32,000 nucleotides of DNA from Aciduliprofundum boonei T469 (GCF_000025665.1 NC_013926.1:990001-1022000); one strand, 5' to 3'; positions 2,469-19,717 are shown, numbered from the stretch's first letter. A program made the numbers and translations. The notes: generated by a model not told the origin, from the sequence alone.

Positions 2469-4028
2469 ATGCAACTGAAAATCTATGATGGAGCAGAGAG
2501 TATTGGTGGCTCTAAGATTTATCTTAGAGATGGAAACCATGGAATTTTCTTGGATTTTGGGCTGAATTTCAACATTATGGGCAAGTACTTTAAAGAGTTC
2601 ATATCTATGCGTGCAATTCGTGGATTGAACGACCCTATAGAGATGAATTTGTTACCACCCATAGATGTTTATAGAGAGGATTTGATTCCTTCAGATCTGA
2701 ATACTTCTAACTGGGAGAGAATACCCGTGGATGCTGTGCTTCTCACCCATGCGCACATGGACCATTACGGGATGATTGGATATCTGAGATTTGACATACC
2801 CCTCGTTGCCTCGCCCGAGACTCTGGCAATAATAAAGGCGTATCAAGATGCAGGAAAATCAGATAATGCAACATCTGTGATATACGGAGCTAAGAGGGAA
2901 GAAGATTCGAGCTCAATGCCAATTTTGAAAAGCAAGGGAAACAGCATAAAGAACAATGAGGAAAAGATTAGAAAGTACCTGATGCTCAGAAGGTTGATTC
3001 CAACTGAAGAGCTAAGCTATGAGGAAATTGACTTTCTGTGCTTGCAGAGCACGGAAGAGAGGATGGATTATATTGCAGAAATGCTTGAATTTGGCCATCT
3101 GGAGTCTTTGCCCTTCAAAGTCAATGCTCATCCCGTGGATCATTCTATATACGGAGCTGTTGGATACATAATAGAGGATGGAAACTCAAAGAAAATAGCA
3201 TACACTGGAGACTTCAGGATGCATGGAGAGAGAGGAGAAGAAACTTTGAAGTTCACCAATAAAGCAAAGGGAAGCGATGTTCTTATAATTGAAGGGACTA
3301 GGCTAGAGGATGATAGGGAGCATCATTACACCACGGAGCAGGATGTTTTTGAGAATTGCTCTGCAGTTGTGGGTGATGAGAAAGGATTGATAATCGCTGA
3401 TTTCTCGGCCAGGAACTTTGAGAGGTTGAACATGTTCGCCAAGATAGCCAAGGAAAATGGAAGAAATTTGGTTGTCACGGATAAGGATGCTTACGCCATA
3501 ACTGGACTATTAACTGCAGGCACTGAGATTGATGTTGAAAATATAATGGTGTACGACAAGCCCCAAGATAGAGTGGGATGGTGGCAGAAAATGCTAGCAT
3601 ACCATGATCTTTGGGAAGATAAGTATGTGGCTCCTGTAGAAATAAGAGAATATCCTGGAAATTACATACTTGCTTTTTCCCTCTACGACATGCCAAACAT
3701 GATGGACATCAAAACCCAGGGAGGAATGTACTTATACTCTTCAACGGAGGCTTTCACGGAGGACATGGAGCTGGACTTTGTCACACTAAGCAACTGGCTA
3801 AGCAGGTACGGGATGAGAAGTGTTGGCTTTCATATGGAAGGCAATAAGCCCAAGTTTGATGAAGGATACCACGCATCTGGCCATGCAAGCGAGGAGGAGA
3901 TACGAAGTATGATAGATTCCATAGATCCTGATATAATCATACCTGTGCACACCACAAACCCATATTGGTTTGCGCAGAACTTTAATAATACCCTAATTCT
4001 GGGAAATAGGGAGAGCTTAAACTTTTAG
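2469..4028 (+). CDS. Metallo-beta-lactamase / beta-CASP nuclease, RNase J-like
   Basis: 519 aa. HxHxDH motif LLTHAHMDHYG. beta-CASP-like motifs YTGDFRM, YHASGHAS and IIPVHT. N-terminal GAESIGGSKIYL resembles the RNase J N-terminus. Confidence 0.65.
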   Translation: MQLKIYDGAESIGGSKIYLRDGNHGIFLDFGLNFNIMGKYFKEFISMRAIRGLNDPIEMNLLPPIDVYREDLIPSDLNTSNWERIPVDAVLLTHAHMDHYGMIGYLRFDIPLVASPETLAIIKAYQDAGKSDNATSVIYGAKREEDSSSMPILKSKGNSIKNNEEKIRKYLMLRRLIPTEELSYEEIDFLCLQSTEERMDYIAEMLEFGHLESLPFKVNAHPVDHSIYGAVGYIIEDGNSKKIAYTGDFRMHGERGEETLKFTNKAKGSDVLIIEGTRLEDDREHHYTTEQDVFENCSAVVGDEKGLIIADFSARNFERLNMFAKIAKENGRNLVVTDKDAYAITGLLTAGTEIDVENIMVYDKPQDRVGWWQKMLAYHDLWEDKYVAPVEIREYPGNYILAFSLYDMPNMMDIKTQGGMYLYSSTEAFTEDMELDFVTLSNWLSRYGMRSVGFHMEGNKPKFDEGYHASGHASEEEIRSMIDSIDPDIIIPVHTTNPYWFAQNFNNTLILGNRESLNF

Positions 4029-4105: not shown

Positions 4106-4490
4106 TTACCTGATATAGGACGGGGCTGCATTAATCTTTTTAACGCCTATCCTATTTATGACATCTATAATATCTCCTTTGCTAATCTGGGTTTTACTCT
4201 TCTTTCCAAGGTATCTTCTTAATTAATGTCGCACAATATTGAAGATATCTGCGCTAGTAAACCCTTCTGTGATACTTGCTATTTCACTCCAGTTTATATT
4301 CTCATCCACCTGAAAGTCCTTCATTCTAGCTGAATGTTATTTCCCATGTGTTATCGCTTGCATCCCTCCTACTTCCAAGTCCATCTATTTCATCTATGAA
4401 GAGAACTACATTTCCTTTTTTCAGGTTCCCCCAACCCACTTGCTCAGCATTTCCGATTTTTCCATCACATACGTATTCATGAACCTTCAT
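4106..4490 (-). pseudogene. Decayed C-terminal half of a classical AAA+ (Cdc48/PAN-like) ATPase
   Basis: Three consecutive minus-strand reading segments, broken by stops and frameshifts. They read KGNVVLFIDEIDGLGSRRDASDN (Walker B), then NWSEIASITEGFTSADIFNIVRH (AAA lid, compare TEGFSGADI), then LRRYLGKKSKTQISKGDIIDVINRI. No Walker A part is present. Confidence 0.7.
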
Positions 4491-4509
4491 ACTATTTCCC
4501 CTTCCTATA

Positions 4510-7182
4510 TTACATTAGCTCTATGTGTACATAGTTAGCTGCATCACTATACACTTCATCATAAAGATCTTTAACCTCTCCCTTTGAAGAGAAATAAATT
4601 ATTTGCCAACCTTTATTGCTCAGTTCCTTTAATATATCAAACATTCTTCTAAGACGATCAGGATCCGCTTTTATAAACGGGTCGTCCAGAATGAAAAATC
4701 CTTTTTCGTTAAGTATTTTTTCTGCCAGATAGAGACGAATGGCAAAGTAAAGTTGGTCAATGGCCCCTCCAGAAAGCTGTGCAGCAGATAAAACCACACC
4801 ATCATTTCTCTCCACCTTTATTTCTTTTGTCTCTGTGTCATAGAAAACATTTACATACAGGCCATCGGTGATTCTATTAAAGTATTCTATTGCTTTACTA
4901 TCCTCTCCAAACACTTCAGTAACTTTCTCTCGCTCTTCTTCTTCAATCTCTTTGAATATATTTCTGGCAACTAGGATGTACTTTCTTCGCAGTTTATTGT
5001 TTTCTATGAATTCACTCAAAAGTTTCTGTATTCTGTTCAAATCACCTATTCCATTACATTTTATCTCTTCATCTGGGGATAGCGGGGTTAGTATTATTTC
5101 TGGCTCATTACATTCAAGAATGGCTTTTGCAACCCTTTCTATATCTCTAAATTCCTCTTCATACTCCTTCATTTTCTCTTCAAGCACTTGAATTTCATTT
5201 TGCAAAGACTCTAACTTCTCTTTAAGCTTGTTTTCAACCTGCTGATTATATTCAACATCCACTTCAACATCCCTATACTGTTCAAGAGCCTTTAGCTCTT
5301 TTTTCCAAGCATCCAGTTCCTCATCCAGGTCCCCACTTTCATGATCAAACAGTGTTCGAAGTTTCTCCCGGAGTTTATTCACTTCATTTTTAACATCATT
5401 TTTCTTTATTATAATAGATTCTAATTCGTCTATGCTCTCCACCCCATATTTTTTCATTAAGGATGAAATTTCATCCTTGGCGTTTTGGATTTTGGATTTT
5501 AAATCAGTCATGTCCTTCTCCAACCCCACTCTATCTTCTTGTAACTTCTTCAGTTTTCCCTCCAGTTCACTTAGGTATTTTATTAATTTTTCATATTCTT
5601 CTCTTATTCTTTCTATGTCCCCTATATACAAGTTTACATTTTCCTTTACAGGTATATCCAATTTACCAACAAGCTTCATAATTTCATCCTTTGCTGTCTG
5701 GAGGTTATCGCTCAGTTTTTTGCAATCACTTTTTTTACTATTATAAAGTTGCTTAGCGATATCCAAATCTCTTTGTGCATCATCTTTTCTTTTTTCCAGT
5801 ATAGAAAGCTGGTATTCTATATCGCTTTTGGTAGGTTTTACTTCCAATACTGGGGTAATATCATTTATTATCTCTTCCCATGTATCTTCTTTTTTCTCAC
5901 CCTTTACCATCCGGTACTGTACGTATCCTAATAATAAACCTATCGATGCAAATGCAAGTCCTCCGGCTATAGACAATATTGAACCTAAAATTGCTCCAGC
6001 TGCTATTGCTGTTATACCAGTTACAAAAGAAAAGATCATAATATAATTGAACACTTTCCTTATAGATTGTGATTTTTCTAAATTCCAAGAGGTGTTTTTC
6101 AGATCTTCAATCCTTTTTTGAATATTCTTCTTAGTAATGTAATTCCATGCGTAATCTGCCATCTTTTTCTCCTGGGATGCACGATTTACTTCATTTTCAA
6201 GCTCATTTAATTTCTTATCACATTCAATATAGTCGGGTTCTATCCTGTTTACCTCATTTATATAATTCTCCAGTGTGTCTGCTAACTCTTTTTGTTTTTT
6301 AAGTTTGTTTAATTTCTCTTCTAAAGCTTTCTTCTCAGCTATGACATTATCCTGGTCTTTGATAATATCATTATGTTTATTAACTAGTTTTTGAAGTTCT
6401 TTATTGTACTTTGATAGATCATCATTATACTTTTTCCAAGCGTCTAGATCATCTTCTTTATATTTCTCATAATTTTTAAGTTCATTCAGTTTCTCAGTTA
6501 GATCATTCAATAGTTGTTCTCCAGCCATAAGCTTATTCTTCTTTTGCACAAGATGCAACTTTTCTAGATGATTGGAAATCTCCCTTTCTTCTCTTTTTTT
6601 GCTTATCAATTGTATTTCCATCTCTTCAATATTGTTTTCTTTTAAATCATTAATAAGAGCGTTAATACGTTTCAAAAGGTCATCTGCTTTATCAATTCTA
6701 CTTTTCAGTTTATGATCTCTCTGTGAATTGCTGAATCTACCTGTATCTGTGATCTTTCCCACATCAAGTAACTTTCTTTGAATACTTCCAACAATATCAA
6801 CTTTGGACCCAGTAAGTCTCTCAGTTAGATTGTTATAATAATCATCTTCATACTTTATTGATAAGTCACTATCTCGTATGACAAATATGTTTCTGAAATC
6901 CTCTGCGGAGATATCCTCTGTCAGATACCCATCTTGTGGTAACTTGTACTCTTTACCTTCATATTCCAGTATAACATAACCTTCGGGAGTGCCTTCAATT
7001 CTATTGATTTTATCAAAAAGGGAGTTATATCCCCTCTCCATCATAATTTTCAGTAGAGCATCGACAATCAAGGTCTTTCCCTTCTCATTTTTACCCCATA
7101 AAATATTGAAGTTTTTTAACTCAAACTCTCCAGTATCTGAAAGAGGACCGTATCTGAAAATTCGAAAGTTCTTTATCTTCAT
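4510..7182 (-). CDS. Rad50/SbcC-like SMC-family ATPase with a central transmembrane hairpin
   Basis: 890 aa. Walker A GKNEKGKT. Long heptad-like K/E/L-rich arms. Signature LSGGAIDQLYFAIRL and Walker B FFILDDPF. Residues about 377-422 (nt 5917-6054) form about 45 hydrophobic residues (IMIFSFVTGITAIAAGAILGSILSIAGGLAFASIGLLLGY). No CxxC hook is present. Confidence 0.85.
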   Translation of the reverse strand: MKIKNFRIFRYGPLSDTGEFELKNFNILWGKNEKGKTLIVDALLKIMMERGYNSLFDKINRIEGTPEGYVILEYEGKEYKLPQDGYLTEDISAEDFRNIFVIRDSDLSIKYEDDYYNNLTERLTGSKVDIVGSIQRKLLDVGKITDTGRFSNSQRDHKLKSRIDKADDLLKRINALINDLKENNIEEMEIQLISKKREEREISNHLEKLHLVQKKNKLMAGEQLLNDLTEKLNELKNYEKYKEDDLDAWKKYNDDLSKYNKELQKLVNKHNDIIKDQDNVIAEKKALEEKLNKLKKQKELADTLENYINEVNRIEPDYIECDKKLNELENEVNRASQEKKMADYAWNYITKKNIQKRIEDLKNTSWNLEKSQSIRKVFNYIMIFSFVTGITAIAAGAILGSILSIAGGLAFASIGLLLGYVQYRMVKGEKKEDTWEEIINDITPVLEVKPTKSDIEYQLSILEKRKDDAQRDLDIAKQLYNSKKSDCKKLSDNLQTAKDEIMKLVGKLDIPVKENVNLYIGDIERIREEYEKLIKYLSELEGKLKKLQEDRVGLEKDMTDLKSKIQNAKDEISSLMKKYGVESIDELESIIIKKNDVKNEVNKLREKLRTLFDHESGDLDEELDAWKKELKALEQYRDVEVDVEYNQQVENKLKEKLESLQNEIQVLEEKMKEYEEEFRDIERVAKAILECNEPEIILTPLSPDEEIKCNGIGDLNRIQKLLSEFIENNKLRRKYILVARNIFKEIEEEEREKVTEVFGEDSKAIEYFNRITDGLYVNVFYDTETKEIKVERNDGVVLSAAQLSGGAIDQLYFAIRLYLAEKILNEKGFFILDDPFIKADPDRLRRMFDILKELSNKGWQIIYFSSKGEVKDLYDEVYSDAANYVHIELM

Positions 7183-8270
7183 TACAGCACCTCCATCATA
7201 GCCTTGAGCACATACTCAGTAATTCTCCTTTTATCCTCTTCAGAATAGTCCAGAGCATTTAGTTTTTCGGAAAACTGTAGAAATAATGGATCATTCAATA
7301 TCCTTGTGAGATCCTGAACGTGATTTGTAATATCTGATATTTGGGATGAATATTTCTCTTTCAAAACATCAAGATATTGTTGAATATCCCCCTCTGAAGT
7401 GGCGTGTTTTGCTCTATTTATGTATCCACTTATCTCTATCATCACTTTGTAATTTTTATCAGTGCCGGAAAATAGCGGCTCTATCTCACTTTTTATTTGC
7501 TCTAAAGGATCAATCTCTTCAAGGGGATCTATGTATATCTTCTTTTTTTCGTAATGGAAAGTATCTATAGAGTACTCCTGTGGAGGCTCTCCCACCGTAA
7601 AAAGATTAACCTTTCTTCTACCAATTTCTTTAGTGGTTATGGACACAGGAGATCCAGGATAAACAAAATATCCATTATTGGGTAGTTTGATAACCTCGAA
7701 ATTTGTGTGGAAATGTCCTGCAAGTACATAGGAAATAGGTAAGTCTTTAAAATACGCAGTCTTCACAGGCATATAACGTTTGGTTCCCTCGTCTCCAAAA
7801 CCTTTGAGCCAACCGAAGGCATCTGTGAGTTCGCCGTGGAAAATGAGTATGTTTGTCTTAGAATTGTCCATAAGTTTTCCCATCTCATATAACCTTTCGA
7901 GGATCTCTTCCTCAGTGAGGTTTTCAAAGGGCAGACCCCAGAAAACTGAGGTGTCCTCAGAATATGGCTGCTTAAAATCATGAATCACTACTACATTTTT
8001 GCCCCAGTAAAGGGATTCTTCAAAAATTTCATAATCATGGTTCCCTGGAAGAATGAGTGTGGTGAATGTTGAGTTTTCAAATAGAGATCTTATATGGGGC
8101 CTTAGCTTTTCACCATCCACACCCTTGTCAAACATGTCACCTGCAATTACTAGAATGTCAATTTCATTCTTATTGCCAATTTCTATTATCTTCTCTAGAG
8201 CCTGCCACCTTTCATCATCCACATTTCGGAGATGGATATCTCCGGTATGAAGTATTTTCATAGAAATCAT
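7182..8270 (-). CDS. Mre11/SbcD-like calcineurin-fold metallophosphoesterase nuclease
   Basis: 362 aa. Phosphoesterase motifs HTGDIHL, IAGDMFD, LPGNHD, IFHGEL and LAGHFH. Its TAA stop overlaps the ATG of the downstream ATPase gene by 1 nt (TAATG at 7180-7184). Confidence 0.85.
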   Translation of the reverse strand: MISMKILHTGDIHLRNVDDERWQALEKIIEIGNKNEIDILVIAGDMFDKGVDGEKLRPHIRSLFENSTFTTLILPGNHDYEIFEESLYWGKNVVVIHDFKQPYSEDTSVFWGLPFENLTEEEILERLYEMGKLMDNSKTNILIFHGELTDAFGWLKGFGDEGTKRYMPVKTAYFKDLPISYVLAGHFHTNFEVIKLPNNGYFVYPGSPVSITTKEIGRRKVNLFTVGEPPQEYSIDTFHYEKKKIYIDPLEEIDPLEQIKSEIEPLFSGTDKNYKVMIEISGYINRAKHATSEGDIQQYLDVLKEKYSSQISDITNHVQDLTRILNDPLFLQFSEKLNALDYSEEDKRRITEYVLKAMMEVL

Positions 8271-8288
8271 AAAGTTTTATGATGAAGA

Positions 8289-8302
8289 TTTATAAATATA
8301 TT
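8289..8302 (-). promoter_or_regulatory. TATA-like box for the Mre11/Rad50-like pair
   Basis: The A/T-only stretch TTTATAAATATATT is centred about 25 nt upstream of the ATG at 8270. It lies in the 88-nt gap downstream of the CARF genes. Confidence 0.4.
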
Positions 8303-8358
8303 GTGCCGAAGTAATCTAAACTGAGAATGGGGATTTTTATTACATAACTCCAAGAAAC

Positions 8359-9096
8359 CTACTTTATTTTATCTAAGAATTCCACCAGCACTTTTCCCCT
8401 TTCTGTCAATTGTACTTTTCCATCTTTCATCTCTATGTACTTGTGGTTCTTGAAGTATGCGATTGCCCTATCTGCATTCTCCCTTATCTCTTTCTTGAAC
8501 TCTTCCAGTGTCTTTGGAGTTTTCAGTGTTTTGAGCATCTCTTCCCATTCCTTATTTTCTTGGCTCTCAAAGTTCATGGTGGGCAATTTCTCTATTATTC
8601 CCTTCTCAGCGTGATAAGCATCCACAGAGAGCTTTGTTCCTCTCCTTATGCTCAGATGGCTATAGTACTCTTTCTTATGCACCACATTCATGGTTGCCAA
8701 GTATAAAGCTAGAGAGCCCAACTTGTGGCCACAGCTCACATTAAGCTTTATGTCCACATCCTCTTCTTGTATATGCGAGGAAATGTGATCATCCATTGCC
8801 CTGTACATTATCCTGTATGACTCATCGTAATTAGTTAAATTCACCTTTATGAGCTTGAAGTTTCCTATTTTTTCCACAAGCTTTGCAAATAACTCCTGCT
8901 CCTCATAGCTCAATTCTTTAATCGTTCTCTCAAACTCTTCGTTGGAATAATCGGAGAATATCAGGAGCTTGTCAAATTCCCCTGCGTACTCCATTCCCTC
9001 CAAGAATTTCTCCACTTCCTCGTTGTTCAACTTCTTCCTTATATCCTCGTCACTCTTGTAGGTGTAAATCGTGAGAGTGGAAGCGAAAAGCTTCAT
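8359..9096 (-). CDS. CARF-domain protein with C-terminal winged helix-turn-helix domain (wHTH; Csa3-like regulator)
   Basis: 245 aa. CARF signature [DN]x[ST]xxx[RK] present as NVSCGHK (nt 8722-8742). Rossmann-like N-terminal beta strand MKLFASTL. The C-terminus YFKNHKYIEMKDGKVQLTERGKVLVEFL is wHTH-like. Confidence 0.6.
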   Translation of the reverse strand: MKLFASTLTIYTYKSDEDIRKKLNNEEVEKFLEGMEYAGEFDKLLIFSDYSNEEFERTIKELSYEEQELFAKLVEKIGNFKLIKVNLTNYDESYRIMYRAMDDHISSHIQEEDVDIKLNVSCGHKLGSLALYLATMNVVHKKEYYSHLSIRRGTKLSVDAYHAEKGIIEKLPTMNFESQENKEWEEMLKTLKTPKTLEEFKKEIRENADRAIAYFKNHKYIEMKDGKVQLTERGKVLVEFLDKIK

Positions 9097-9728
9097 AGTG
9101 CATTACCTCCGAAGAGATATGCAGCGCTGTTGGCAACCAAAATCTTCGTTCTCCCATTCTTCTCCTCCCTTATGAGATTTGCTAGTATTAACCTGCTCTT
9201 TGCATCCGATATCGTGGAATAGCCCTTGTTAAGCTTGCTTTTCAATGTCTTCATGTCCATTTTCCCACCTTGGCTGTGTATTAGGGCTTGCAGAATCTGC
9301 ACCGCCGTGGAATCGCTTTCATTCATTTTAAAAAAGTTCCTCTGGCTCGTGGATAACCTTATGGGCACTCTCTTTATTGTAGTCTTTCCGTTCTCTGTGA
9401 CTAGGTATATTATTGGAATGTCCATCAGGGCTGCCTTGAGAGCCAATGAGAATGACATTATCTTCGTTCCCCCAGTTATGTTTGCCACAGATGTGTTGTC
9501 TATGTGCTCATTCACCTTTGTTATGCAATCGTAGAAGTTCATCGGGTCCACTTGCACCGCCTTGACATTTGAAAGCTCTTTCTTCACCTCATTTAATGCT
9601 TTTTCAACTTTCTCTTTCTCTTCATCGTTCACATATCCGTAAAACACCACATTCTCATCCGGTTTGAGTTTCTTGGCTGCTTCTATAACCACCTTCGATG
9701 TCCAGCCTAGCGTGGATAGCAGTTTCAT
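9093..9728 (-). CDS. CARF-domain protein with C-terminal wHTH (Csa3-like regulator)
   Basis: CARF signature NITGGTK (nt 9462-9482). First-strand motif KLLSTLGWTS. C-terminal wHTH ILQALIHSQGGKMDMKTLKSKL...ANLIREEKNGRTKIL. The ORF track starts at 9755, but the ATG at 9728 has GAGGAG 6 nt upstream. ATGA overlap with the next gene. Confidence 0.7.
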   Translation of the reverse strand: MKLLSTLGWTSKVVIEAAKKLKPDENVVFYGYVNDEEKEKVEKALNEVKKELSNVKAVQVDPMNFYDCITKVNEHIDNTSVANITGGTKIMSFSLALKAALMDIPIIYLVTENGKTTIKRVPIRLSTSQRNFFKMNESDSTAVQILQALIHSQGGKMDMKTLKSKLNKGYSTISDAKSRLILANLIREEKNGRTKILVANSAAYLFGGNAL

Positions 9729-9777
9729 TTTTATCTCCTCATGGCGATTAACCATCTTAAAGAATATATTACTTTCT

Positions 9778-9798
9778 ACGAAGTTTTCAAAAGTTCGT
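9778..9798. promoter_or_regulatory. 21-bp near-perfect palindrome, candidate operator in the divergent promoter region
   Basis: ACGAAGTTTT-C-AAAAGTTCGT; the arms match 9 of 10 positions. It lies next to a TATA-like AATATATT (9763-9771) upstream of the CARF gene. GTTCGT/TTCGT half-site-like copies recur at 9924-9929 and 9974-9979. Confidence 0.4.
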
Positions 9799-10031
9799 GA
9801 AAGATGTTAAATAATACCCAAGGATGATTTTTCTACCTTAAAATGGGGGTATTGAAAATGCAAGGTAGAATGTATAATCGGACATCTTATCCGAAAATAC
9901 CGATTGCGTCAAAGCATTGTAGATTTCGTATTGTAAATGCAAATTATCTGGCTACAGAGCATTTGTGTCGATGGTTCGTTATTCTAATGAGCGATAAATC
10001 TCCTATACCTCGCAGAGGAAACTATGCGAGC

Positions 10032-11159
10032 ATGGTGGCAAAGGCGAGGAGCACTTTGCCCTTGCTATTGCCATTTGGATGCTCATATGTTCTTCTAAAC
10101 ATTGAGATAATTGGCAACGAGATGAATCTGATTGTAAAGTCTCCATACAAAGGCGAAGCCATACCTATAGATAGATTGGGACTCTTAGCTTATATGGCAA
10201 TTGAAATATTGAAGAGAGGAAGTTACAGAAAAGATCCTTTTATGAGTAAATATGAGAAATACTACGATAAGTTTAGAGAGTACATACCCGAAGATTACAG
10301 GATAACGGTGAACGGAGAGTATACAACTTTTAATTACCGCACATTGGAAGAGATTTATCAGAAATTTCCAGAGATCATTGAAGATCTAAGTGGTGTACAT
10401 TCCCCTGTAAATCCCCCCCAATGCCAGAGCTGCCCATTTAAAAATGCATGTGCGTATTTATCCGCAACTGCTGATCTCATGGATTTGCATATGTTAGATT
10501 TTTTTCACAACATTCCAAGAATATATCATGCCCTTAGAAATGCGGGGGTAAACGCTCTTCTTTATATAGGAATATACATGTTCAATCGCTTTCGGTACTT
10601 GAATGTTGATGAGAGCTTAATAAGTGCTGCAGAGTATCTGTCAGAGGGAAAAAACGTAGCCATATATGTCAGGTTTGGTATAGAGCCAAGAAATCGCATG
10701 TTTCTATCGCTGCTGGATGGAAATGTATACAAGGATGCCTACCAGCTGGTTTTGAAGAACCCGAATATGAGAATTTTTGACGAGAGTGGCGATGTGACTG
10801 ATGAGCTTGTTATAAAGAGCCTCATTCTAAGATCCTTATTAACATCTAGAAACTCCAATGAAATAAACAAGTTTCTCAAAGATTATCCTGAGAACGAGAA
10901 GTACATTCTCTATTTCTCCTTCTTAACCAATAATCCTTTCGCAGAGAACATATTCTATGCAAGGGGAACCGTTGACGAGAACGATCCTTCAACCATGTAC
11001 CTGAACGAGAAAAACGGAGTGGTTGATCTATTAAGCACGATATACAATTCTAAATTGTATAAAGATGGATACATAGAAGTTGATAAAGAAAATTTGAAGG
11101 TTTATCCCACAAAAAAGTTGTTGAACACTCTTAGCTCTCTTTGCATGGGGGGAGAATAA
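10032..11159 (+). CDS. Hypothetical protein A with Cas4-like Cys arrangement (paralogue of the next gene)
   Basis: 375 aa from the ATG at 10032; the ORF is open from 9843. Cys17 lies in the context FGCSYVLL, and CQSCPFKNAC (C-x2-C-x5-C, nt 10422-10451) starts at codon 131. ITVNGEYTTFNY aligns with IRINGENVDVHFN in protein B. Confidence 0.7.
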   Translation: MVAKARSTLPLLLPFGCSYVLLNIEIIGNEMNLIVKSPYKGEAIPIDRLGLLAYMAIEILKRGSYRKDPFMSKYEKYYDKFREYIPEDYRITVNGEYTTFNYRTLEEIYQKFPEIIEDLSGVHSPVNPPQCQSCPFKNACAYLSATADLMDLHMLDFFHNIPRIYHALRNAGVNALLYIGIYMFNRFRYLNVDESLISAAEYLSEGKNVAIYVRFGIEPRNRMFLSLLDGNVYKDAYQLVLKNPNMRIFDESGDVTDELVIKSLILRSLLTSRNSNEINKFLKDYPENEKYILYFSFLTNNPFAENIFYARGTVDENDPSTMYLNEKNGVVDLLSTIYNSKLYKDGYIEVDKENLKVYPTKKLLNTLSSLCMGGE

Positions 11160-11995
11160 TGATTCCGGGAGATTTCCTATACACAAACTACTTTTGCAGA
11201 TCGGCCCTCTTGCTAACCCGTGATTTCTACTCAGATTACAAGCCAAACATGGATTACATCGTGTTAAAATTGATGGGGAAAAAGATATTTTTCAGGCGTA
11301 AAGGTAATGATTTCATACTGGTCAATCAATATGGAGAAAAGAGCATATTAAGGAAAACTAAAGCATGGATAAAAGTTCTGATTGCCAAGGCACTGAAGGA
11401 TTCTGGAGAGAATTTCAGAGATATAAGAATAAATGGTGAGAATGTGGATGTTCATTTTAATGATCTGCTTATAATCGGAGAGGTTGCATCGCAGATTAAC
11501 ACCTTCACCTTGGAGAGACTTACAAACCATTCATCTGGAAATCTTGGGTGCAAAGTTCCCTGCCCTTTTAAAAGATACTGCCAGGATGGCATAGAACCAA
11601 CTACATCCTACGATCCTCAAAAAAATCTCTATTATCTCACTCTTTACTCATCCATAGTGGATTTAATTCTTAGCTCGGATATTCTGTTAGCTGGCATAAA
11701 TGTAGTTGATAGGTACATTGACAATTTTGGAAATTTGCAGAGAAAATTAAACGGAATTTTAGCCAAACTCTCACAGGAGATAGGTTATGATAGAGCAGAT
11801 GCACTTCTCTGGCTTGGAAGAAAGGTTATGATGGGAGAGAGGGTTAAAGACACAGAGCTAAACTTGGAAGATTATGGAGGATACATAACAAGAGTTGGGA
11901 AGTGGATAATACCCACAGACAAATTCTGGAATCTGGTTTATGGAGAGGGGAAAGAGGAGAAGATAAGAGGGTTGTACGAGATTTGGGGTGATTGA
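11159..11995 (+). CDS. Hypothetical protein B with Cas4-like Cys arrangement (paralogue of the preceding gene)
   Basis: 278 aa from the ATG at 11159, which overlaps the upstream TAA (TAATG) and follows GGGGGGAG. Cys13 lies in the context YFCRSALLL. CKVPCPFKRYC (C-x3-C-x5-C, nt 11549-11581) also starts at codon 131. Confidence 0.7.
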   Translation: MIPGDFLYTNYFCRSALLLTRDFYSDYKPNMDYIVLKLMGKKIFFRRKGNDFILVNQYGEKSILRKTKAWIKVLIAKALKDSGENFRDIRINGENVDVHFNDLLIIGEVASQINTFTLERLTNHSSGNLGCKVPCPFKRYCQDGIEPTTSYDPQKNLYYLTLYSSIVDLILSSDILLAGINVVDRYIDNFGNLQRKLNGILAKLSQEIGYDRADALLWLGRKVMMGERVKDTELNLEDYGGYITRVGKWIIPTDKFWNLVYGEGKEEKIRGLYEIWGD

Positions 11996-11996
11996 G

Positions 11997-13103
11997 ATGA
12001 GGGAGAAATACATATCCGCAATTAATGAGATTGAGAAGTACTATGCGTTTCCAGATAAGCATAGAGAGCTCATGAAGATCATTCCCCTTGTGAAGAATGG
12101 TATATTCCTCATATACGGTTATTATGGGTACGGTAAGACTGTGTATGCAGATTTAATTGGCAAGGTTCTCTTCGGCGTGAATTCTTCTCAAGGCAAGGTA
12201 AACTTGAGCAACGAGCTTGGCATACACGATGTGTTCTTCTGGATAGATGCTGGGCAATTGGCAAAGGGAAAGGAGGTAATAGAGCCAAGGGGAATAATAA
12301 GCTCTCCGTTTAAATTCATAAACGAGCTGCAGAGAGGAAATGGCAGGATATACAACACTCTCTTATCCCTAATGAGCGAGAAAAAGATAGTGTACAGGGA
12401 TAGAGTATTTAGCACTCCTGATTTCGTCATGCTGATGGACGCAAATCCAATGGACTCTTCCTCTGTTAAGATACCAAGAGCGTTACTGGACAGGGTAACT
12501 GCAAGCTTCACCATGCTCACGCCCAACGAGGATGAGAGGGAGAAATTGATGTATTTAGAGCACTCTTCACCGCTCGATGCCGTTGAGCCAATGCTCACCT
12601 ACGAAGACATGCAGAAGATATGGAGCGAGGTGGAGAGAATAAAAGTCCCAGAGGGTTTGGTATTCTTATTAACGCACTTGATACACAATTATTTGAATGC
12701 CTGTGAGAAGGGAAACAAAGAGTATTTCACGCCAGAGATGATGAGGAGCATGTGCGAAGGATGCAGGTGGAGAGTAGAGCCATGCTCAGAGCTTCTAGAG
12801 CCTCTCGGGCAGAGATGGTGGATTGATGCCATAAAGATTGCAAAAGCGAGGGCCTATTTTGAAGGGAGAGAGGTAAACGAAGAGGATGTGTTCTTTGCAG
12901 TTAAGTATGTTCTGCCCCATAGGGTACATCTTAGAGAGGACATAAAGATAGCCTATGTATCCCCTGAGCTTTGGGCTGAGAAGTTGGTAGAGAGGATAAA
13001 AACGGAGCTAGAAACGAGGTGGATTCCAGCCTTGAATGGAAATGAGAAAGCTTTGAGAGATTCTGAAAGAACGCTTCATTTCATCTTGGAGGGGAGAGAA
13101 TGA
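11997..13103 (+). CDS. MoxR-family AAA+ ATPase (divergent)
   Basis: Walker A GYYGYGKT (nt 12117-12140). Walker B region FKFINELQRGNGRIYNTLLSLMSEKKI. Sensor/Arg-finger region FVMLMDANPMDSSSVKIPRALLDRV. The ATG at 11997 follows GGGGTGAT; an alternative GTG lies at 11988. C-terminal C-x16-C-x2-C-x6-C cluster. Confidence 0.8.
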   Translation: MREKYISAINEIEKYYAFPDKHRELMKIIPLVKNGIFLIYGYYGYGKTVYADLIGKVLFGVNSSQGKVNLSNELGIHDVFFWIDAGQLAKGKEVIEPRGIISSPFKFINELQRGNGRIYNTLLSLMSEKKIVYRDRVFSTPDFVMLMDANPMDSSSVKIPRALLDRVTASFTMLTPNEDEREKLMYLEHSSPLDAVEPMLTYEDMQKIWSEVERIKVPEGLVFLLTHLIHNYLNACEKGNKEYFTPEMMRSMCEGCRWRVEPCSELLEPLGQRWWIDAIKIAKARAYFEGREVNEEDVFFAVKYVLPHRVHLREDIKIAYVSPELWAEKLVERIKTELETRWIPALNGNEKALRDSERTLHFILEGRE

Positions 13104-14515
13104 ATGTTGAGAACATAATGAAAGAAGTTAGCTCTGAGTTCGGAAAGGTCATGCCTTTGAAAATAGTGGACGATGCTCCATCCGCGTACTTTGACTGGGA
13201 AAGCGTCACGCTGCCAAAGAGGTTCTTAGATTGGGATGATGAAATGATAAAGAATGTAATAAGGCACGAATTTGGCCATCTATTTTTCTCTCCCCGAAAC
13301 CCGGATGTGGGTGTGGTAATCAACTACATAGCTAGCTTGTTTGGTTACGAGAATCCATGGCTCTTTACGAACATTCTCACAGATTTGATTGTGGATACCA
13401 CGAATATGGAAGTGTTCGGAGAAGAGTACCTGCGTTTTCTGGAGAGGAGCATAGAAAATGCGGATAAAGGAAGAACCTTGAGAGTGATGGCCGGGGTTTA
13501 TCATGAAAAGGCTGAAAAGCTAAATCTAAAAACCTCACTTCCAAAAAATCATATAGGTAAGGAAATATACAAAATACTCAACAACAATGAGACGGATTTT
13601 TACCTGAGAGTTATAGAGATTGCAAAGTTGTTCTTACCCTATTATGATTTTCAAACACCACTTCATTTCAGGATACTCATATTTTCCGATGACTCGCCGG
13701 CAGAGATTGCAAAATCTCTCATAAAGGTGAAGGTTGGAAGCGATGTGATGGACGAGCTAAGGAGATTGGCAGGAGAAAGGGGAGGATTCTTGATATCCGA
13801 TCCAGTCATGGTCGCATACGAGAAGATGAAGATGGTTTCCACATACTTGGAGCTTGAGGAGAGTATGGAAGGCATGGAGAGCAAACAGATCAACTATGGG
13901 CCTTGGAGCATCGGTGACGAGCCCTACGAGCTGGACATGACTAAAACTCTAACCAGTTACGGCATAGTGCTTCCCGGAGTTTATTCTACAAAATCCGAGA
14001 GCATAGACATGGGAAACGAGAGAGAAGGAAAAAGCTACAGAGACTCAATAATAATCTTGGATTGTAGTGGCTCTATGGAAGGAGAGCCTTTTGAGAGAGC
14101 TAGAGAAGCTGCGTATGTTATGGCCAGAGAGATCCAGAAAGCCGGGAAGAAAGTAGGGCTAATCCCATTCTCCGGGTATGTCATTGAAGATAGGGTGGTG
14201 TATCCCACAACCGATTCTTCAAGATTGAACGATATACTCACTAGAATCAAGCCGGGGGGAGGTACAATGCTTCAATACGCGCTCCAATTCGCTTTGCAAT
14301 TCGGGAAAGAATACTATGTTTACATATTATCCGATTCTGATGTTTACGATGTGCGTTCCACAGAGGAGCTTTTGGATGAGTTTAGGGGAAGATGCACTTT
14401 CTTCCTCATATCTTATGAAGAGGTAAACAGGTGGTTTGAAAAGGATGGAATAAAGATTGTTGAGATCTCTCCAGATGGTATTGTTAAGAGAGCTTATGAG
14501 GAGGTGAAAAAATGA
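13100..14515 (+). CDS. Putative zinc metallopeptidase (HExxH, DUF2201_N-like) fused to a von Willebrand factor A (vWA) domain
   Basis: 471 aa. HEFGH at nt 13265-13279, with downstream NILTDLIVDT. vWA MIDAS motif DCSGS at nt 14060-14074, followed by GLIPFSG and GGGT. ATGA overlap with the MoxR gene. Confidence 0.8.
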   Translation: MNVENIMKEVSSEFGKVMPLKIVDDAPSAYFDWESVTLPKRFLDWDDEMIKNVIRHEFGHLFFSPRNPDVGVVINYIASLFGYENPWLFTNILTDLIVDTTNMEVFGEEYLRFLERSIENADKGRTLRVMAGVYHEKAEKLNLKTSLPKNHIGKEIYKILNNNETDFYLRVIEIAKLFLPYYDFQTPLHFRILIFSDDSPAEIAKSLIKVKVGSDVMDELRRLAGERGGFLISDPVMVAYEKMKMVSTYLELEESMEGMESKQINYGPWSIGDEPYELDMTKTLTSYGIVLPGVYSTKSESIDMGNEREGKSYRDSIIILDCSGSMEGEPFERAREAAYVMAREIQKAGKKVGLIPFSGYVIEDRVVYPTTDSSRLNDILTRIKPGGGTMLQYALQFALQFGKEYYVYILSDSDVYDVRSTEELLDEFRGRCTFFLISYEEVNRWFEKDGIKIVEISPDGIVKRAYEEVKK

Positions 14516-15183
14516 AGAATTTAGATAAGTATGTTAAGGACCTAACGGAAAGGATAAAGATAAACTATGAAGGTTTGAAAATATCCGAAAAGGGTACGGA
14601 AATGGAGAAGAAAGCTTACATGGGCTTTTACATTCCTTACCCAAAAACTCTAGATAACGATATAATCATTGGAAGTGAAGTTGATGAAATGGCACCTATC
14701 AGAAGATCCTCAATAGTTGTTTGGAGAATAACCCCAAGTGGTTTTGAGCTCATATCTGCTAAGGACCAAAAATTTGAGCACAAGGTTAGGAAAATGATTG
14801 AAGAGACAAGAGACAAGGTGGTTTACACTTACGATGAAACAAAGCTATCTCCCAATATTACCCGACTGCTTCAAAGAAGAAGGCTAAAGGACTTGGAAGA
14901 ATCTGTTGAGAGATTATCATTGCACATGGATAAAAGCGACATACCTGTGCCTTGGGATCCAATTGATTTTGATGATGTATCAGAAGCTTGGAGAAGTGGA
15001 GATACGAGGATTGTGAACCTTCACTGCGTTGCCGAAGCCCTGCGTATTTATTCCATCTACCTAATAGTGAAAGTCACAGAGATGATAAGAAGCTTGAACA
15101 CCGTAACCCTAGACCAGTTCATGGTGAAAGGAAACTCCAATGGGAAGATAAAACTTCCAAAGCTGGTGGATTCGACTTACTAA
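14512..15183 (+). CDS. Hypothetical protein, last gene of the MoxR-vWA operon
   Basis: 223 aa. ATGA overlap with the upstream gene, preceded by GAGGAGGTGA. I recognise no motif. Confidence 0.7.
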   Translation: MKNLDKYVKDLTERIKINYEGLKISEKGTEMEKKAYMGFYIPYPKTLDNDIIIGSEVDEMAPIRRSSIVVWRITPSGFELISAKDQKFEHKVRKMIEETRDKVVYTYDETKLSPNITRLLQRRRLKDLEESVERLSLHMDKSDIPVPWDPIDFDDVSEAWRSGDTRIVNLHCVAEALRIYSIYLIVKVTEMIRSLNTVTLDQFMVKGNSNGKIKLPKLVDSTY

Positions 15184-16423: not shown

Positions 16424-17269
16424 TCACAATACACCTCCGTAGATTATCGCTCCACCTTCCATCTTCGGTATCTCCCATTCTTCCTCATCCTTCATGTTTA
16501 TGTAAATTATCGCTTTCAAATCTTCATTGTTCAAAGTCAATTTCTCTGGATGTTCTCTATCCACCACAACAACCATTCCCTTTCCACGCTTGACATACCA
16601 GAACAGCTCTCCCTCAACCTTGTCAATCACCTTTCCATCCCTGTATAACTCAACGAAACCATAGATGTGCTTTTTGAGAACGGGTGGCATTTTGGGGTGC
16701 AACCTTATCATGTCTCCTTCCAATCCCTCACCGTCTTTCTTCATCCTTATCTCTCCCCTGTATTCTTTCACGGGATAACCCCAGCCAACAACTCTCAAAG
16801 TCCCGTTCTTCAACTCTACCTTGTCTATCAACCCCGCATGGAGCTTCCAGAGGGTCTCGTTATCAACCAAGTATCTCGCTTTCCTTGTGGATATGTGGTA
16901 GAATTCCTCATCCTCCGTTATCCACTCAAACCAATCGCTCTTTGCGAAGGTATCGTTTATGTGTATGACCTCGTAATTGATTTCTCCCCCGATTAACTTG
17001 TTCTTTACGAGGATTATTCCCTTTCCCGTCTCCAAAATCCCTTCCACATACGGCAGGTACTCTCCCACGAACACTCTCTTTCTCCAAGGTTCTACACAAT
17101 CCAAGCATACCAGAGATTCCATCTCTATGGTTCCGTAAATGAATGGGTCTTCGCCGTACCTTTGCGGTTTAATCGTTATTTTGCCACTCTTGAACACGAA
17201 CCCGCCAACCCAAACTACATCTCCTCTATACTCTCTCCAATCATACTCATCATAATACATTCTCACCAC
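16424..17269 (-). CDS. Hypothetical protein co-transcribed with the recombinase
   Basis: 281-aa ORF overlapping the 3' end of the recombinase gene by 20 nt. I recognise no motif. Confidence 0.65.
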   Translation of the reverse strand: MVRMYYDEYDWREYRGDVVWVGGFVFKSGKITIKPQRYGEDPFIYGTIEMESLVCLDCVEPWRKRVFVGEYLPYVEGILETGKGIILVKNKLIGGEINYEVIHINDTFAKSDWFEWITEDEEFYHISTRKARYLVDNETLWKLHAGLIDKVELKNGTLRVVGWGYPVKEYRGEIRMKKDGEGLEGDMIRLHPKMPPVLKKHIYGFVELYRDGKVIDKVEGELFWYVKRGKGMVVVVDREHPEKLTLNNEDLKAIIYINMKDEEEWEIPKMEGGAIIYGGVL

Positions 17270-19707: not shown

Positions 19708-19717
19708 GGTGATGTGA

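What the first reader, a model, noticed from the sequence alone, without database searches (positions are those of the whole stretch)
4510..15183. Island architecture: CARF-wHTH hub flanked by two different putative effector modules
The two CARF regulators (8359-9755) lie between a membrane-tethered Mre11/Rad50-like nuclease pair and the MoxR-vWA operon. The nuclease pair is on the same strand with its own TATA-like box at 8289-8302. The MoxR-vWA operon is divergent and shares the control region. The whole block is bracketed by a TA pair and a pseudogene on one side and an integrase-bearing element on the other. If the CARF proteins respond to cyclic oligonucleotides, this would be a transcriptionally wired, signal-inducible second line of defence. 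I know of no description of that arrangement for SbcCD-like or MoxR-vWA modules.
Basis: inference. Interest (0 to 1): 0.7.

Follow-up and report, generated by a model that had tools for sequence, protein, structure and literature searches.

The report
Paired CARF regulators beside MoxR-vWA operon
In this archaeon, two paired sensor-regulator genes are linked across distant relatives to the neighbouring MoxR-vWA operon, whereas the membrane-anchored Mre11/Rad50-like nuclease pair on their other side is an unrelated cassette that was inserted there.

Summary
The window comes from Aciduliprofundum boonei T469.

Only half of the "hub with two effector arms" idea survives comparison with related loci. 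I found ten independent loci that carry the CARF1+CARF2 pair.
- **MoxR-vWA arm, supported.** Three loci, spanning the deepest split in the family (36-39% identity), place the pair next to an orthologous MoxR, HExxH-vWA and small-protein module. In A. boonei the module is divergent from the pair. In two distant lineages all five genes lie on one strand, closely spaced, and probably form one operon. This points to a real functional link.
- **Mre11/Rad50-like arm, not supported.** The membrane-anchored pair sits next to the CARF pair only in A. boonei. It belongs to a large family that occurs elsewhere without CARF genes. It arrived as a three-gene cassette that split an otherwise conserved junction between CARF2 and an RNase J-like gene. 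The cassette has lower GC, a decayed third gene and its own promoter-like element.

No specific shared operator was found. The apparent shared motif is a general promoter element of this organism. No cas genes or cyclases lie near any of the loci, so cyclic-oligoadenylate control is untested.

Published precedents exist. Csa3a binds the mre11-rad50 operon promoter in Sulfolobus, and CARF proteins have been reported with vWA-MoxR modules near type III CRISPR loci. I rate this a new variant of a known kind, of moderate interest.

The parts
1918..2372 (-). Flank: ParE-type toxin (1918-2181) and AF2212-like antitoxin (2178-2372).
   Evidence: Pfam ParE_toxin E 7.7e-9 and AF2212-like E 5.5e-7.
2469..4028 (+). 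Intact RNase J-like beta-CASP metallo-beta-lactamase gene (519 aa). In relatives it is the conserved convergent neighbour of CARF2.
   Evidence: Pfam Lactamase_B_2 and RMMBL. NCBIfam RNase J family E 4e-16, far below that model's cut-off. Full-length orthologues of 48-76% identity lie next to CARF2 in L007, L009, L011, L016, L017 and L033.
4335..4421 (-). Decayed remnant of the NERD-AAA gene that follows the Rad50-like gene in locus L003. It is the third gene of the inserted cassette.
   Evidence: tblastn with the L003 977-aa protein: residues 815-843 match at 65% identity, E 1.4e-6. No long ORF exists in 4029-4509.
4510..7182 (-). Rad50/SbcC-like ABC ATPase (890 aa). A two-helix hydrophobic hairpin (residues 377-421) replaces the zinc hook.
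   Evidence: The C-terminal head matches Rad50 structures at E 8e-6. NCBIfam Rad50_Sulf E 1.5e-13 and Pfam AAA_15/AAA_27, all below their cut-offs. The hydrophobic hairpin is conserved in L003 and L004 homologues.
7182..8270 (-). Mre11/SbcD-like metallophosphoesterase (362 aa). Its stop overlaps the start of the Rad50-like gene.
   Evidence: Pfam Metallophos E 3.4e-18. Best solved-structure match 2q8u, Mre11/SbcD, E 2e-8. More than 1000 homologues, about 45% identical, in archaea and bacteria.
8271..8358 (-). Spacer between CARF2 and the Mre11-like gene. It holds a BRE/TATA-like element at about 8289-8312, which looks like the cassette's own promoter.
   Evidence: Sequence. The ACTTCGG-N4-TATA layout recurs at many unrelated promoters in the window. 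The site ranks only 167th with a position-weight matrix built from CARF and MoxR promoters.
8359..9096 (-). CARF2: a diverged CARF-like domain plus a C-terminal winged helix (245 aa). It always follows CARF1, and in most loci read the two genes overlap by a few bases.
   Evidence: Family-level Pfam hits. PADLOC CARF3 E 3e-7. Invariant N-x-S-x-G-H-K motif that aligns with the NITGGTK motif of CARF1. Orthologues in nine other loci.
9093..9728 (-). CARF1 (Aboo_1039): a Csa3-like CARF plus winged-helix protein (211 aa from the likely start at 9728; the ORF extends to 9755).
   Evidence: Pfam Csa3_N and CARF_Card1 above their cut-offs. PADLOC CARF3 E 8e-133. Family profile hits Can2 and Crn1 structures. 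16 homologue clusters in total.
9729..9857 (.). Shared 129-nt control region with two back-to-back promoters. TATA for CARF1 is at about 9762-9772 (-) and TATA for the operon at about 9806-9816 (+). The imperfect palindrome ACGAAGTTTTCAAAAGTTCGT lies between them at 9778-9798.
   Evidence: Sequence. The CARF1 promoter is conserved in L033, L007, L009 and L016. The operon promoter is 22/23 identical in L032. The palindrome is unique in the window, but each arm matches the general promoter element.
9858..11159 (+). U438 (433 aa): a rare protein with four conserved Cys (C37, C189-x2-C192-x5-C198) in a Cas4-like pattern. The catalytic residues of that nuclease fold are not conserved. The C-terminus looks like a winged helix.
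   Evidence: Only 3 close homologues and 8 cluster representatives among 1.84 billion proteins. Alignment. The top solved-structure hits are Cas4 but are not significant, E 0.45-0.69.
11159..11995 (+). U284 (about 278 aa): a paralogue of the N-terminal four-Cys domain of U438.
   Evidence: hhalign against the U438 family gives probability 91%, E 1e-6. Orthologue in L032 at 60% identity.
11988..13103 (+). MoxR-like AAA+ ATPase (368-371 aa). Its Walker B motif is N-E rather than D-E, and it has an invariant four-Cys insert.
   Evidence: Pfam AAA_lid_2 and AAA_5 at or above their cut-offs; bpMoxR below its cut-off. Orthologues at 86% (L032), 73% (L015), 47% (L014) and 46% (L018) identity. Alignment.
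13100..14515 (+). vWA protein (471 aa) with an N-terminal HExxH domain and an intact metal-binding MIDAS motif.
   Evidence: Pfam VWA_2 E 8e-11. Invariant H56-E57-x-x-H60 and D321-x-S323-G-S325 across five orthologues.
14512..15183 (+). U223: the small last gene of the operon. A positional orthologue follows the vWA gene in every related locus.
   Evidence: Orthologues in L032 (48%) and L015 (38%). Weak but colinear similarity to the L014 and L018 proteins.
17250..17843 (-). Flank: tyrosine-recombinase fragment (197 aa, catalytic domain only), at the edge of mobile DNA that extends to the end of the window.
   Evidence: Pfam Phage_integrase E 5.5e-8. NCBIfam XerA weak. A methyltransferase and type IV secretion-like genes lie further on.

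Best explanation
The block is a composite of three units with different histories.

**Unit 1: the CARF1-CARF2 bicistron.**
- It is conserved across this lineage of vent archaea.
- The stop and start codons overlap in most of the loci read. One CARF domain is canonical and the other is degenerate.
- From this I infer a heterodimeric, ligand-responsive transcription factor of the Csa3 type.

**Unit 2: a MoxR ATPase, an HExxH-vWA protein and a small partner.**
- In A. boonei two paralogous four-Cys, Cas4-like proteins precede them.
- This unit is functionally tied to the CARF pair. In two distant lineages MoxR-vWA-Ux-CARF1-CARF2 lie on one strand, closely spaced, as a probable operon.
- In A. boonei the two units are transcribed divergently from back-to-back promoters whose TATA boxes are about 35-45 bp apart.
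- Inferred mechanism: a nucleotide-type ligand bound by the CARF domains changes how the winged helices bind the 129-nt spacer. This sets expression of the MoxR operon and of the pair itself. The MoxR-vWA machine then remodels or processes a target in an ATP-dependent way.

**Unit 3: the Mre11-like nuclease, the membrane-anchored Rad50-like ATPase and a decayed NERD-AAA gene.**
- This is an independent, horizontally spread cassette that resembles B. subtilis SbcE/SbcF.
- It landed between CARF2 and the RNase J-like gene and brought its own promoter.
- It is most likely not part of the CARF circuit.

**Shown here:** the gene content, the conservation patterns and the insertion.
**Inferred:** heterodimer formation, ligand binding, DNA binding and what the MoxR module does.
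For: **Pair conservation.** CARF1 and CARF2 orthologues are adjacent in ten distinct loci.

**MoxR link.**
- L014 and L018/L035 carry CARF proteins 31-37% identical to the window's. Their MoxR is 46-47% identical and their vWA protein 29-33% identical.
- In both loci MoxR, the vWA protein and a small protein lie directly upstream of CARF1 on the same strand.
- L014 also has a U438 homologue with the same four Cys.
- In L014 an identical 15-nt element lies upstream of both gene groups.
- Both families are rare: 16 CARF1 clusters and 8 U438 representatives in 1.84 billion proteins.
- The five-gene operon is kept as a unit in L032.
- The CARF1 and operon promoters are conserved between relatives.

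**Cassette independence.**
- In L003 the pair is followed by a NERD-AAA gene. In L004 it lies beside GmrSD. Neither locus has CARF genes.
- In L009, L011 and L033 the 3' ends of CARF2 and the RNase J-like gene overlap. In the window they are 4.3 kb apart.
- A remnant of the NERD-AAA gene lies at 4335-4421.
- GC is 34.8% for the two cassette genes against 40.8% for the CARF-MoxR block.
- The promoter-like element at 8289-8312 matches only the general promoter pattern.
Against: - In at least four CARF-pair loci (L007, L009, L011, L033) no MoxR-vWA gene lies on the stretch read, which reaches about 8-10 kb on most sides but only about 2.6 kb downstream in L033. Adjacency is therefore not obligatory.
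- L032 and L033 come from one sample. If they come from one genome, the operon and the pair are unlinked there.
- No specific operator could be separated from the general promoter element.
- No ligand source (cas10 or another cyclase) was seen in any locus.
- The CARF assignment for CARF2 rests on hits below the curated cut-offs and one shared motif. The profile-profile comparison with CARF1 gave a probability of only 11%.
- Both structure models were unusable, with pLDDT of 39 and 41.
- L033 has the canonical NurA-HerA-Mre11-Rad50 operon divergent from the pair. Csa3a regulates such genes in Sulfolobus. Some link between this pair and double-strand-break nucleases therefore cannot be excluded.
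- No oligo-T terminator is evident after CARF2, so read-through into the cassette is possible.
Confidence: 0.55

Rival explanations
1. The CARF pair is a cyclic-oligoadenylate-responsive hub that transcriptionally induces both flanking modules, forming a second line of defence.
For: - The Mre11-like gene lies 88 nt downstream of CARF2 on the same strand, with no obvious terminator between them.
- Its promoter shares the ACTTCGG-TATA layout with the CARF1 promoter.
- A close relative (L033) has a canonical Mre11-Rad50 operon divergent from the pair.
- Csa3a binds the nurA-mre11-rad50-herA promoter in S. islandicus (PMC5587795).
- The CARF1 profile resembles the cA4-binding proteins Can2 and Crn1.
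Against: - The nuclease pair is adjacent in only 1 of 10 CARF-pair loci.
- It occurs without CARF genes in L003 and L004, and its family is far larger than the CARF family.
- It is an insertion into a conserved junction.
- The shared motif is a general promoter element, and the site scores poorly with the regulon matrix.
- No cas or cyclase genes lie near any locus.
Confidence: 0.1
2. The CARF pair acts at the protein level inside the MoxR-vWA system, for example as a ligand-gated partner, a client or a ring nuclease, rather than mainly as a transcription factor for it.
For: - In L014 and L018 the pair forms the last two genes of the MoxR-vWA gene string, as expected for subunits.
- vWA-MoxR ternary systems combine sensors and effectors as proteins (PMC7159879).
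- CARF domains coupled to vWA-MoxR-VMAP modules have been reported near type III CRISPR loci (PMC10910872).
- CARF1 weakly resembles the ring nuclease Crn1.
Against: - Both proteins end in winged-helix-like domains.
- Most pair loci have no MoxR nearby, which suits a regulator that acts on distant genes better than an obligate subunit.
- The A. boonei arrangement, divergent with back-to-back promoters, is typical of regulator-target pairs.
Confidence: 0.15
3. All the adjacency is incidental. The CARF pair is a stand-alone lineage-specific regulator, and both neighbouring modules are unrelated cargo of a variable, recombination-prone region.
For: - The region upstream of CARF1 differs in almost every locus: a short-chain dehydrogenase, an amidohydrolase, an MBL-fold protein, NurA-HerA, or MoxR.
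- The window is rich in mobile DNA.
- Only three loci show the MoxR link.
Against: - Three juxtapositions of two very rare families would need to arise by chance, in two different arrangements and across 36% protein identity. Divergence of all five shared genes is roughly parallel.
- The L014 and L018 neighbourhoods are otherwise housekeeping genes, not mobile islands.
Confidence: 0.12

Closest known systems
Csa3a/Csa3b CARF plus winged-helix transcription factors of Sulfolobales (PMC8844856, PMC8699464, PMC5587795)
   Same: CARF1 has an N-terminal Csa3-type CARF domain, a C-terminal winged helix and a similar length of about 210 aa. Csa3a binds cA4 and activates nearby and distant promoters, including nurA-mre11-rad50-herA.
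   Different: Here there are two different CARF plus winged-helix proteins encoded as a coupled pair. The second has a degenerate first CARF motif. None of the ten loci lies next to cas genes. The conserved partner is a MoxR-vWA module, not a CRISPR adaptation or interference module.
vWA-MoxR ternary conflict systems (PMC7159879) and the CARF-coupled vWA-MoxR-VMAP modules reported near type III CRISPR loci (PMC10910872)
   Same: A MoxR AAA+ ATPase and a vWA protein with an intact MIDAS motif are encoded in tandem with a third small, fast-evolving protein. They are associated with CARF domains. There is a weak match to the bpMoxR model.
   Different: No VMAP, beta-propeller, iSTAND or recognisable effector domain was found. 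The vWA protein carries an N-terminal HExxH domain. MoxR has an N-E Walker B motif and a four-Cys insert. The CARF proteins are separate winged-helix proteins, not fusions to effector-associated domains. There is no CRISPR locus nearby. The hosts are archaea, apparently DHVE2-type.
SbcE/SbcF (YhaN/YhaO) of Bacillus subtilis (PMC2811018)
   Same: An SMC/SbcC-like ATPase has a hydrophobic central domain in place of the CxxC hook. It is encoded directly after an SbcD-like nuclease gene.
   Different: Sequence membership was not established: Pfam AAA_27 scores 19.3 bits against a cut-off of 22. The family studied here is spread through archaea and some bacteria, and it sits beside GmrSD or NERD-AAA genes. 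That suggests a defence role rather than a repair or competence role.
Canonical archaeal Mre11-Rad50 in the NurA-HerA-Mre11-Rad50 operon
   Same: The phosphoesterase motifs and the ABC-ATPase heads are shared, and the two genes overlap.
   Different: There is no zinc hook and there are no herA or nurA partners. All equivalog models score far below their cut-offs. The canonical operon is a separate entity, seen in L033.

Membership tests
Csa3-type CARF plus winged-helix regulators | N-terminal CARF (Rossmann-like) domain with the two ligand-binding loops | tested here: met
   CARF1: Csa3_N 34.2 bits (cut-off 27) and CARF_Card1 30.8 bits (cut-off 24.6). Invariant STLGW and NITGGTK loops. CARF2 has only hits below the cut-offs and keeps only the second loop, N-x-S-x-G-H-K.
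Csa3-type CARF plus winged-helix regulators | [quoted passage not shown] | tested here: inconclusive
   CARF1 residues 147-209 give weak ArsR/SmtB, DUF6432 and Sta1 hits. The full-length TIGR01884 match scores 35 bits against a cut-off of 60. For CARF2, HTH_45 hits 3 of 9 members. Neither structure model was usable.
Csa3-type CARF plus winged-helix regulators | Encoded in or beside CRISPR-cas loci | tested here: not met
   No Cas family appears among the genes called in L007, L009, L011, L013, L014, L033 and L035, which cover up to 8-10 kb on each side. The window has no CRISPR array.
Csa3-type CARF plus winged-helix regulators | Binds cyclic oligoadenylate as a homodimer | not testable with these tools
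   The paired genes suggest a heterodimer instead. Testing this needs biochemistry.
vWA-MoxR ternary systems | MoxR-clade AAA+ ATPase | tested here: inconclusive
   AAA_lid_2 scores 29.2 (cut-off 22.7) and AAA_5 scores 22.4 (cut-off 22). bpMoxR scores 16.3 against a cut-off of 27. The Walker B motif is N-E rather than D-E.
vWA-MoxR ternary systems | vWA protein with a MIDAS motif, encoded next to MoxR | tested here: met
   VWA_2 scores 43 bits (cut-off 27). Invariant DxSGS, T and D residues. The genes overlap by 4 nt.
vWA-MoxR ternary systems | Third component of the VMAP, beta-propeller or FtsH type, with effector domains | tested here: not met
   U223, U438 and U284 hit nothing in Pfam, NCBIfam, PADLOC or PHROGs.
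SbcE/SbcF (YhaN/YhaO) | SMC-like ATPase with a hydrophobic central domain instead of a CxxC hook, paired with an SbcD-like nuclease | tested here: met
   Hydrophobic hairpin at residues 377-421 and no CxxC. The adjacent Metallophos/SbcD-like gene overlaps it.
SbcE/SbcF (YhaN/YhaO) | Sequence membership in the YhaN family (Pfam AAA_27) | tested here: inconclusive
   AAA_27 scores 19.3 bits against a cut-off of 22, and only residues 1-46 match. No YhaN sequence was available for a direct comparison.
Cas4 / PD-(D/E)xK iron-sulfur nucleases (for U438 and U284) | Four-Cys pattern C...CxxCx5C around a PD-(D/E)xK core with catalytic D, E and K | tested here: inconclusive
   The Cys pattern is invariant. 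The top solved-structure hits are Cas4, but at E 0.45-0.69. PDDEXK_1 gives E 0.3. The catalytic residues are not conserved in the alignment.

The most novel reading that the evidence does not exclude
CARF1 and CARF2 form an obligate heterodimeric CARF plus winged-helix sensor. Together with a MoxR ATPase, an HExxH-vWA protein, a small partner and two inactivated Cas4-like four-Cys proteins, the sensor makes up a CRISPR-independent, nucleotide-signal-controlled system of DHVE2-type vent archaea. The system would serve conflict or stress responses. It would be the first CARF transcription factor known to work as a heterodimer, and the first CARF-controlled MoxR-vWA machine in archaea.
Probability: 0.3. 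Interest if true: 0.7.

Novelty: new variant of a known kind. Interest (0 to 1): 0.5.

Why it matters
CARF sensors are studied almost entirely as receivers of type III CRISPR signals. This family of paired CARF plus winged-helix genes never sits next to cas genes, yet it is repeatedly linked to a MoxR-vWA machine.

If the link is functional, three things follow:
- CARF signalling would extend to a new class of output.
- It would provide a testable case of an asymmetric, heterodimeric CARF receptor.
- It would give a handle on what archaeal MoxR-vWA modules do.

The negative result also matters. The striking membrane-anchored Mre11/Rad50-like pair should be studied as a stand-alone, widely spread cassette, not as a CARF effector.

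Tried and rejected
1. **A specific shared operator.** A position-weight matrix built from CARF1 and MoxR-operon promoters ranked the Mre11-like promoter only 167th in the window. The ACTTCG(G/T)-TATA layout recurs at many unrelated promoters, including ORF149, ORF87, U217, the RNase J-like gene and AF2212. I read it as a general BRE-like element. The palindrome at 9778-9798 is then simply two such elements back to back.
2. **Direct repeats as attachment sites.** The repeats at 9790/19484 and 8360/15210 share 13-nt exact cores, which is at chance level. For the first pair, 3 of 100 shuffles did as well. No tRNA genes are present.
3. **Structure prediction.** CARF2 as a single sequence and U438 with four sequences gave pLDDT of 39 and 41. 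No fold search was therefore run.
5. **Viral-contig scans.** Scans with CARF1 and MoxR profiles found nothing. The Mre11-like profile found only distant SbcD relatives of 24-30% identity.
6. **Rfam and tandem-repeat scans.** No RNA family and no CRISPR array.
7. **Literature.** I found no mention of the Aboo locus tags and no statement on whether A. boonei has a type III CRISPR system.
8. **Whether L032 and L033 come from one genome.** They come from the same sample, but composition could not settle the question.

Full report
**Source and gene content**

The window comes from Aciduliprofundum boonei T469. CARF1 is Aboo_1039, and the Mre11-like protein is annotated as an A. boonei metallophosphoesterase. 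The same 17-kb stretch is present in the draft assembly of the strain, differing by one mismatch and one gap.

On the minus strand:
- A Rad50-like ATPase (4510-7182).
- An Mre11/SbcD-like phosphoesterase (7182-8270).
- CARF2 (8359-9096).
- CARF1 (9093-9728, with the ORF extending to 9755).

On the plus strand lies a tight five-gene operon (9858-15183). Its gene boundaries overlap or nearly abut:
- U438.
- U284.
- A MoxR-like AAA+ ATPase.
- A vWA protein.
- U223.

The flanks are as follows:
- A ParE/AF2212-like toxin-antitoxin pair (1918-2372).
- An intact RNase J-like beta-CASP gene (2469-4028).
- An integrase fragment (17250-17843).
- Further on, a low-GC methyltransferase region and type IV secretion-like genes.

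**The nuclease pair**

- The Mre11-like protein has the phosphoesterase motifs. Its best solved-structure match is T. maritima Mre11/SbcD (E 2e-8).
- The Rad50-like protein matches the C-terminal half of P. furiosus Rad50 (E 8e-6).
- It has no CxxC hook. A 45-residue hydrophobic hairpin (residues 377-421) sits in the middle of the coiled coil. The hairpin is conserved in homologues that are 48% and about 40% identical.
- The membrane tether is therefore real, and it is in the ATPase subunit.
- The closest described system is B. subtilis SbcE/SbcF. SbcE is an SbcC-like protein whose unique central domain is hydrophobic and lacks CxxC, and it is encoded next to an SbcD-like gene (PMC2811018). 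Sequence membership was not established, because AAA_27 scores below its cut-off.

**The two CARF proteins**

- CARF1 is a solid Csa3-type CARF protein. Csa3_N and CARF_Card1 score above their cut-offs, and the PADLOC CARF3 model gives E 8e-133. A profile of its 16 homologue clusters hits Can2 (E 1e-6) and the ring nuclease Crn1.
- Its C-terminal third gives weak ArsR/SmtB-type winged-helix hits.
- CARF2 is much more diverged. As a family, 8 of 9 members hit HFX_2341_N, 5 of 9 hit CARF_Card1 and 3 of 9 hit a winged-helix model.
- Its invariant N-x-S-x-G-H-K loop aligns with the NITGGTK loop of CARF1. The profile-profile probability is low, at 11%.
- In most of the loci read, the CARF1 stop overlaps the CARF2 start by a few bases. 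I read this as translational coupling and a probable heterodimer. That reading is an inference.

**Neighbourhoods of the CARF pair**

I recovered ten distinct loci that carry both genes.

| Locus | CARF1 identity to window | Upstream of CARF1 | Downstream of CARF2 |
|---|---|---|---|
| window (A. boonei) | 100% | divergent MoxR-vWA operon | Mre11/Rad50-like cassette, then RNase J-like gene |
| L033/L034 | 70% | divergent canonical NurA-HerA-Mre11-Rad50 (zinc hook) | RNase J-like gene |
| L007 | 63% | short-chain dehydrogenase | ammonium transporter, then RNase J-like gene |
| L009 | 55% | amidohydrolase | RNase J-like gene |
| L016 | 50% | not examined | RNase J-like gene |
| L011 | 49% | MBL-fold protein | RNase J-like gene |
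| L017 | 47% | not examined | RNase J-like gene |
| L013 | 39% | no MoxR on the 8 kb read | contig ends |
| L014 | 37% | MoxR-vWA-small protein, same strand | U190 and U368 (a U438 homologue), convergent |
| L018/L035 | 36% | MoxR-vWA-small protein, same strand | TldD/PmbA genes |

Three points follow from these loci:
- In the six relatives at 47-70% identity, the pair is followed by the convergent RNase J-like gene. In three of them the 3' ends of the two genes overlap.
- In L014 and L018/L035 the order is (cupin)-MoxR-vWA-small protein-CARF1-CARF2 on one strand. MoxR is 46-47% identical to the window's and the vWA protein 29-33%.
- L014 also carries a 368-aa homologue of U438 with the same Cys pattern. 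Its two gene groups share an identical 15-nt element upstream of their TATA boxes.

No cas gene appears in any of these loci.

**The MoxR-vWA module**

- The five-gene operon is conserved as a unit in L032. Identities there are U438 50%, U284 60%, MoxR 86%, vWA 66% and U223 48%. Part of it is also present in L015.
- U438 belongs to a very small family: three close homologues and eight representatives in 1.84 billion proteins.
- U438 and U284 are paralogues (hhalign probability 91%). They share four Cys spaced as in Cas4 (one N-terminal Cys plus CxxCx5C). The best solved-structure hits are Cas4, but they are not significant, and the catalytic residues are not conserved.
- MoxR has an N-E Walker B motif and an invariant four-Cys insert.
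- The vWA protein has an invariant HExxH motif and an intact MIDAS motif.
- Nothing in the module matches known defence or phage families.
- Two rare gene sets are adjacent in three lineages, in two arrangements, with roughly parallel divergence. That is strong comparative evidence for a functional link.
- At least four pair loci have no MoxR on the stretch read, so the link does not require adjacency.

**The nuclease pair is an insertion**

- Its homologues form a large family. More than 1000 clusters score E below 1e-5, and the top 120 are about 353 aa and 43-58% identical. They occur in Altiarchaeales, Methanophagales, Atribacteria and others.
- In L003 the pair is followed by a 977-aa NERD-AAA gene. 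In L004 it lies beside GmrSD. Neither locus has CARF genes.
- In the window, 4335-4421 is a remnant of that NERD-AAA gene (65% identity over 29 residues, E 1e-6). So a three-gene cassette was acquired and its last gene has decayed.
- The cassette fills exactly the 4.3 kb that separates CARF2 from the RNase J-like gene. In relatives those two genes abut or overlap.
- GC is 34.8% for the two cassette genes against 40.8% for the CARF-MoxR block. Coiled-coil coding bias contributes to this difference.

**Control regions**

- The CARF1 promoter (BRE-like element, TATA and Shine-Dalgarno sequence) is conserved in relatives and fixes the start codon at 9728.
- The operon promoter is 22/23 identical in L032.
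- The two TATA boxes face away from each other about 35-45 bp apart. The imperfect palindrome 9778-9798 lies between them and is unique in the window.
- The half-site ACTTCG(G/T) followed by a TATA box also occurs at the Mre11-like gene, ORF149 and ORF87. Variants occur at U217, the RNase J-like gene and the AF2212 promoter.
- A matrix built from the putative regulon ranks the Mre11-like site only 167th.
- I therefore treat the motif as a general promoter element of this organism. No specific operator has been identified, and the transcriptional wiring remains an inference from gene arrangement.

**Comparison with what is known**

- Csa3a of S. islandicus binds the promoter of nurA-mre11-rad50-herA and the promoters of SMC-like genes (PMC5587795). 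Csa3 binds cA4 (PMC8844856, PMC8699464).
- CARF proteins coupled to vWA-MoxR-VMAP modules have been reported near type III CRISPR loci (PMC10910872). The ternary vWA-MoxR conflict systems are described in PMC7159879.
- The present system differs in several ways:
  - It has two separate CARF plus winged-helix proteins.
  - It has no CRISPR context.
  - Its vWA protein carries an HExxH domain.
  - It includes Cas4-like four-Cys proteins.
  - It lacks a recognisable third component or effector.
  - Its hosts are archaea.
- I classify it as a new variant of a known kind.

**Verdict**

The MoxR-vWA arm is supported by conservation. The Mre11/Rad50-like arm is best explained as an unrelated inserted cassette.
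- One caveat keeps a weak link to double-strand-break nucleases open. L033 places a canonical Mre11-Rad50 operon next to the pair, and Csa3a offers a precedent.
- Cyclic-oligoadenylate control is untested.

Noticed in passing
window 2469-4028; L007, L009, L011, L016, L017, L033: An RNase J-like beta-CASP gene is the conserved convergent neighbour of CARF2 in all relatives of 47-70% identity. In three of them the 3' ends overlap. It could simply be inherited gene order, or it could be a further target or partner of the pair. The draft assembly of the same strain differs from the window by one mismatch and one gap, which I did not locate. A frameshift there may be why the draft annotates this gene as two fragments.
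   Followed up: partly
L033 1651-8141: In the closest relative with long context (70% CARF1 identity), the canonical NurA-HerA-Mre11-Rad50 (zinc hook) operon is divergent from the CARF pair. This recalls Csa3a control of that operon in Sulfolobus.
   Followed up: partly
window 4029-4509 (remnant at 4335-4421): A non-coding stretch holds a decayed fragment of an AAA+ Walker B region. It is homologous to the NERD-AAA gene that follows the Rad50-like gene in L003.
   Followed up: yes
window 11988-13103 and orthologues in L014, L018, L032: This MoxR subfamily has Asn instead of Asp in the Walker B motif (FKF[IV]NE). It also has an invariant four-Cys insert (C239, C256, C259, C266) ahead of the lid domain. 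Together with the four-Cys proteins U438 and U284, this makes the module unusually rich in metal- or iron-sulfur-type sites.
   Followed up: partly
window promoters at about 1908, 2421, 8312, 9784, 9792, 15232, 18880 and 19486: Many unrelated genes carry ACTTCG(G/T), or a close variant, 3-6 nt upstream of the TATA box. This looks like an extended BRE-type element typical of this organism.
   Followed up: partly
L014 4350-4697; L018 935-1357: A small cupin gene lies directly upstream of MoxR in both distant loci where the MoxR-vWA and CARF genes lie on one strand. No cupin gene is present in the A. boonei locus.
   Followed up: no
window 19500-24600: A low-GC segment (30%) encodes an 852-aa protein with a C-terminal N6/N4 DNA methyltransferase domain and several proteins with no family match. 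It is probably foreign DNA.
   Followed up: no
window 24731-31991: A type IV secretion-like block includes a TraG/VirB4-type ATPase and two paralogous pilin-like genes. Their internal repeats (30335-30435, 31297-31403) are C-rich on the plus strand. This suggests an integrated conjugative element.
   Followed up: no
window 71-1243: An AAA_14/DUF4143 ATPase with an embedded HTH lies at the left edge of the window, next to the toxin-antitoxin pair.
   Followed up: no
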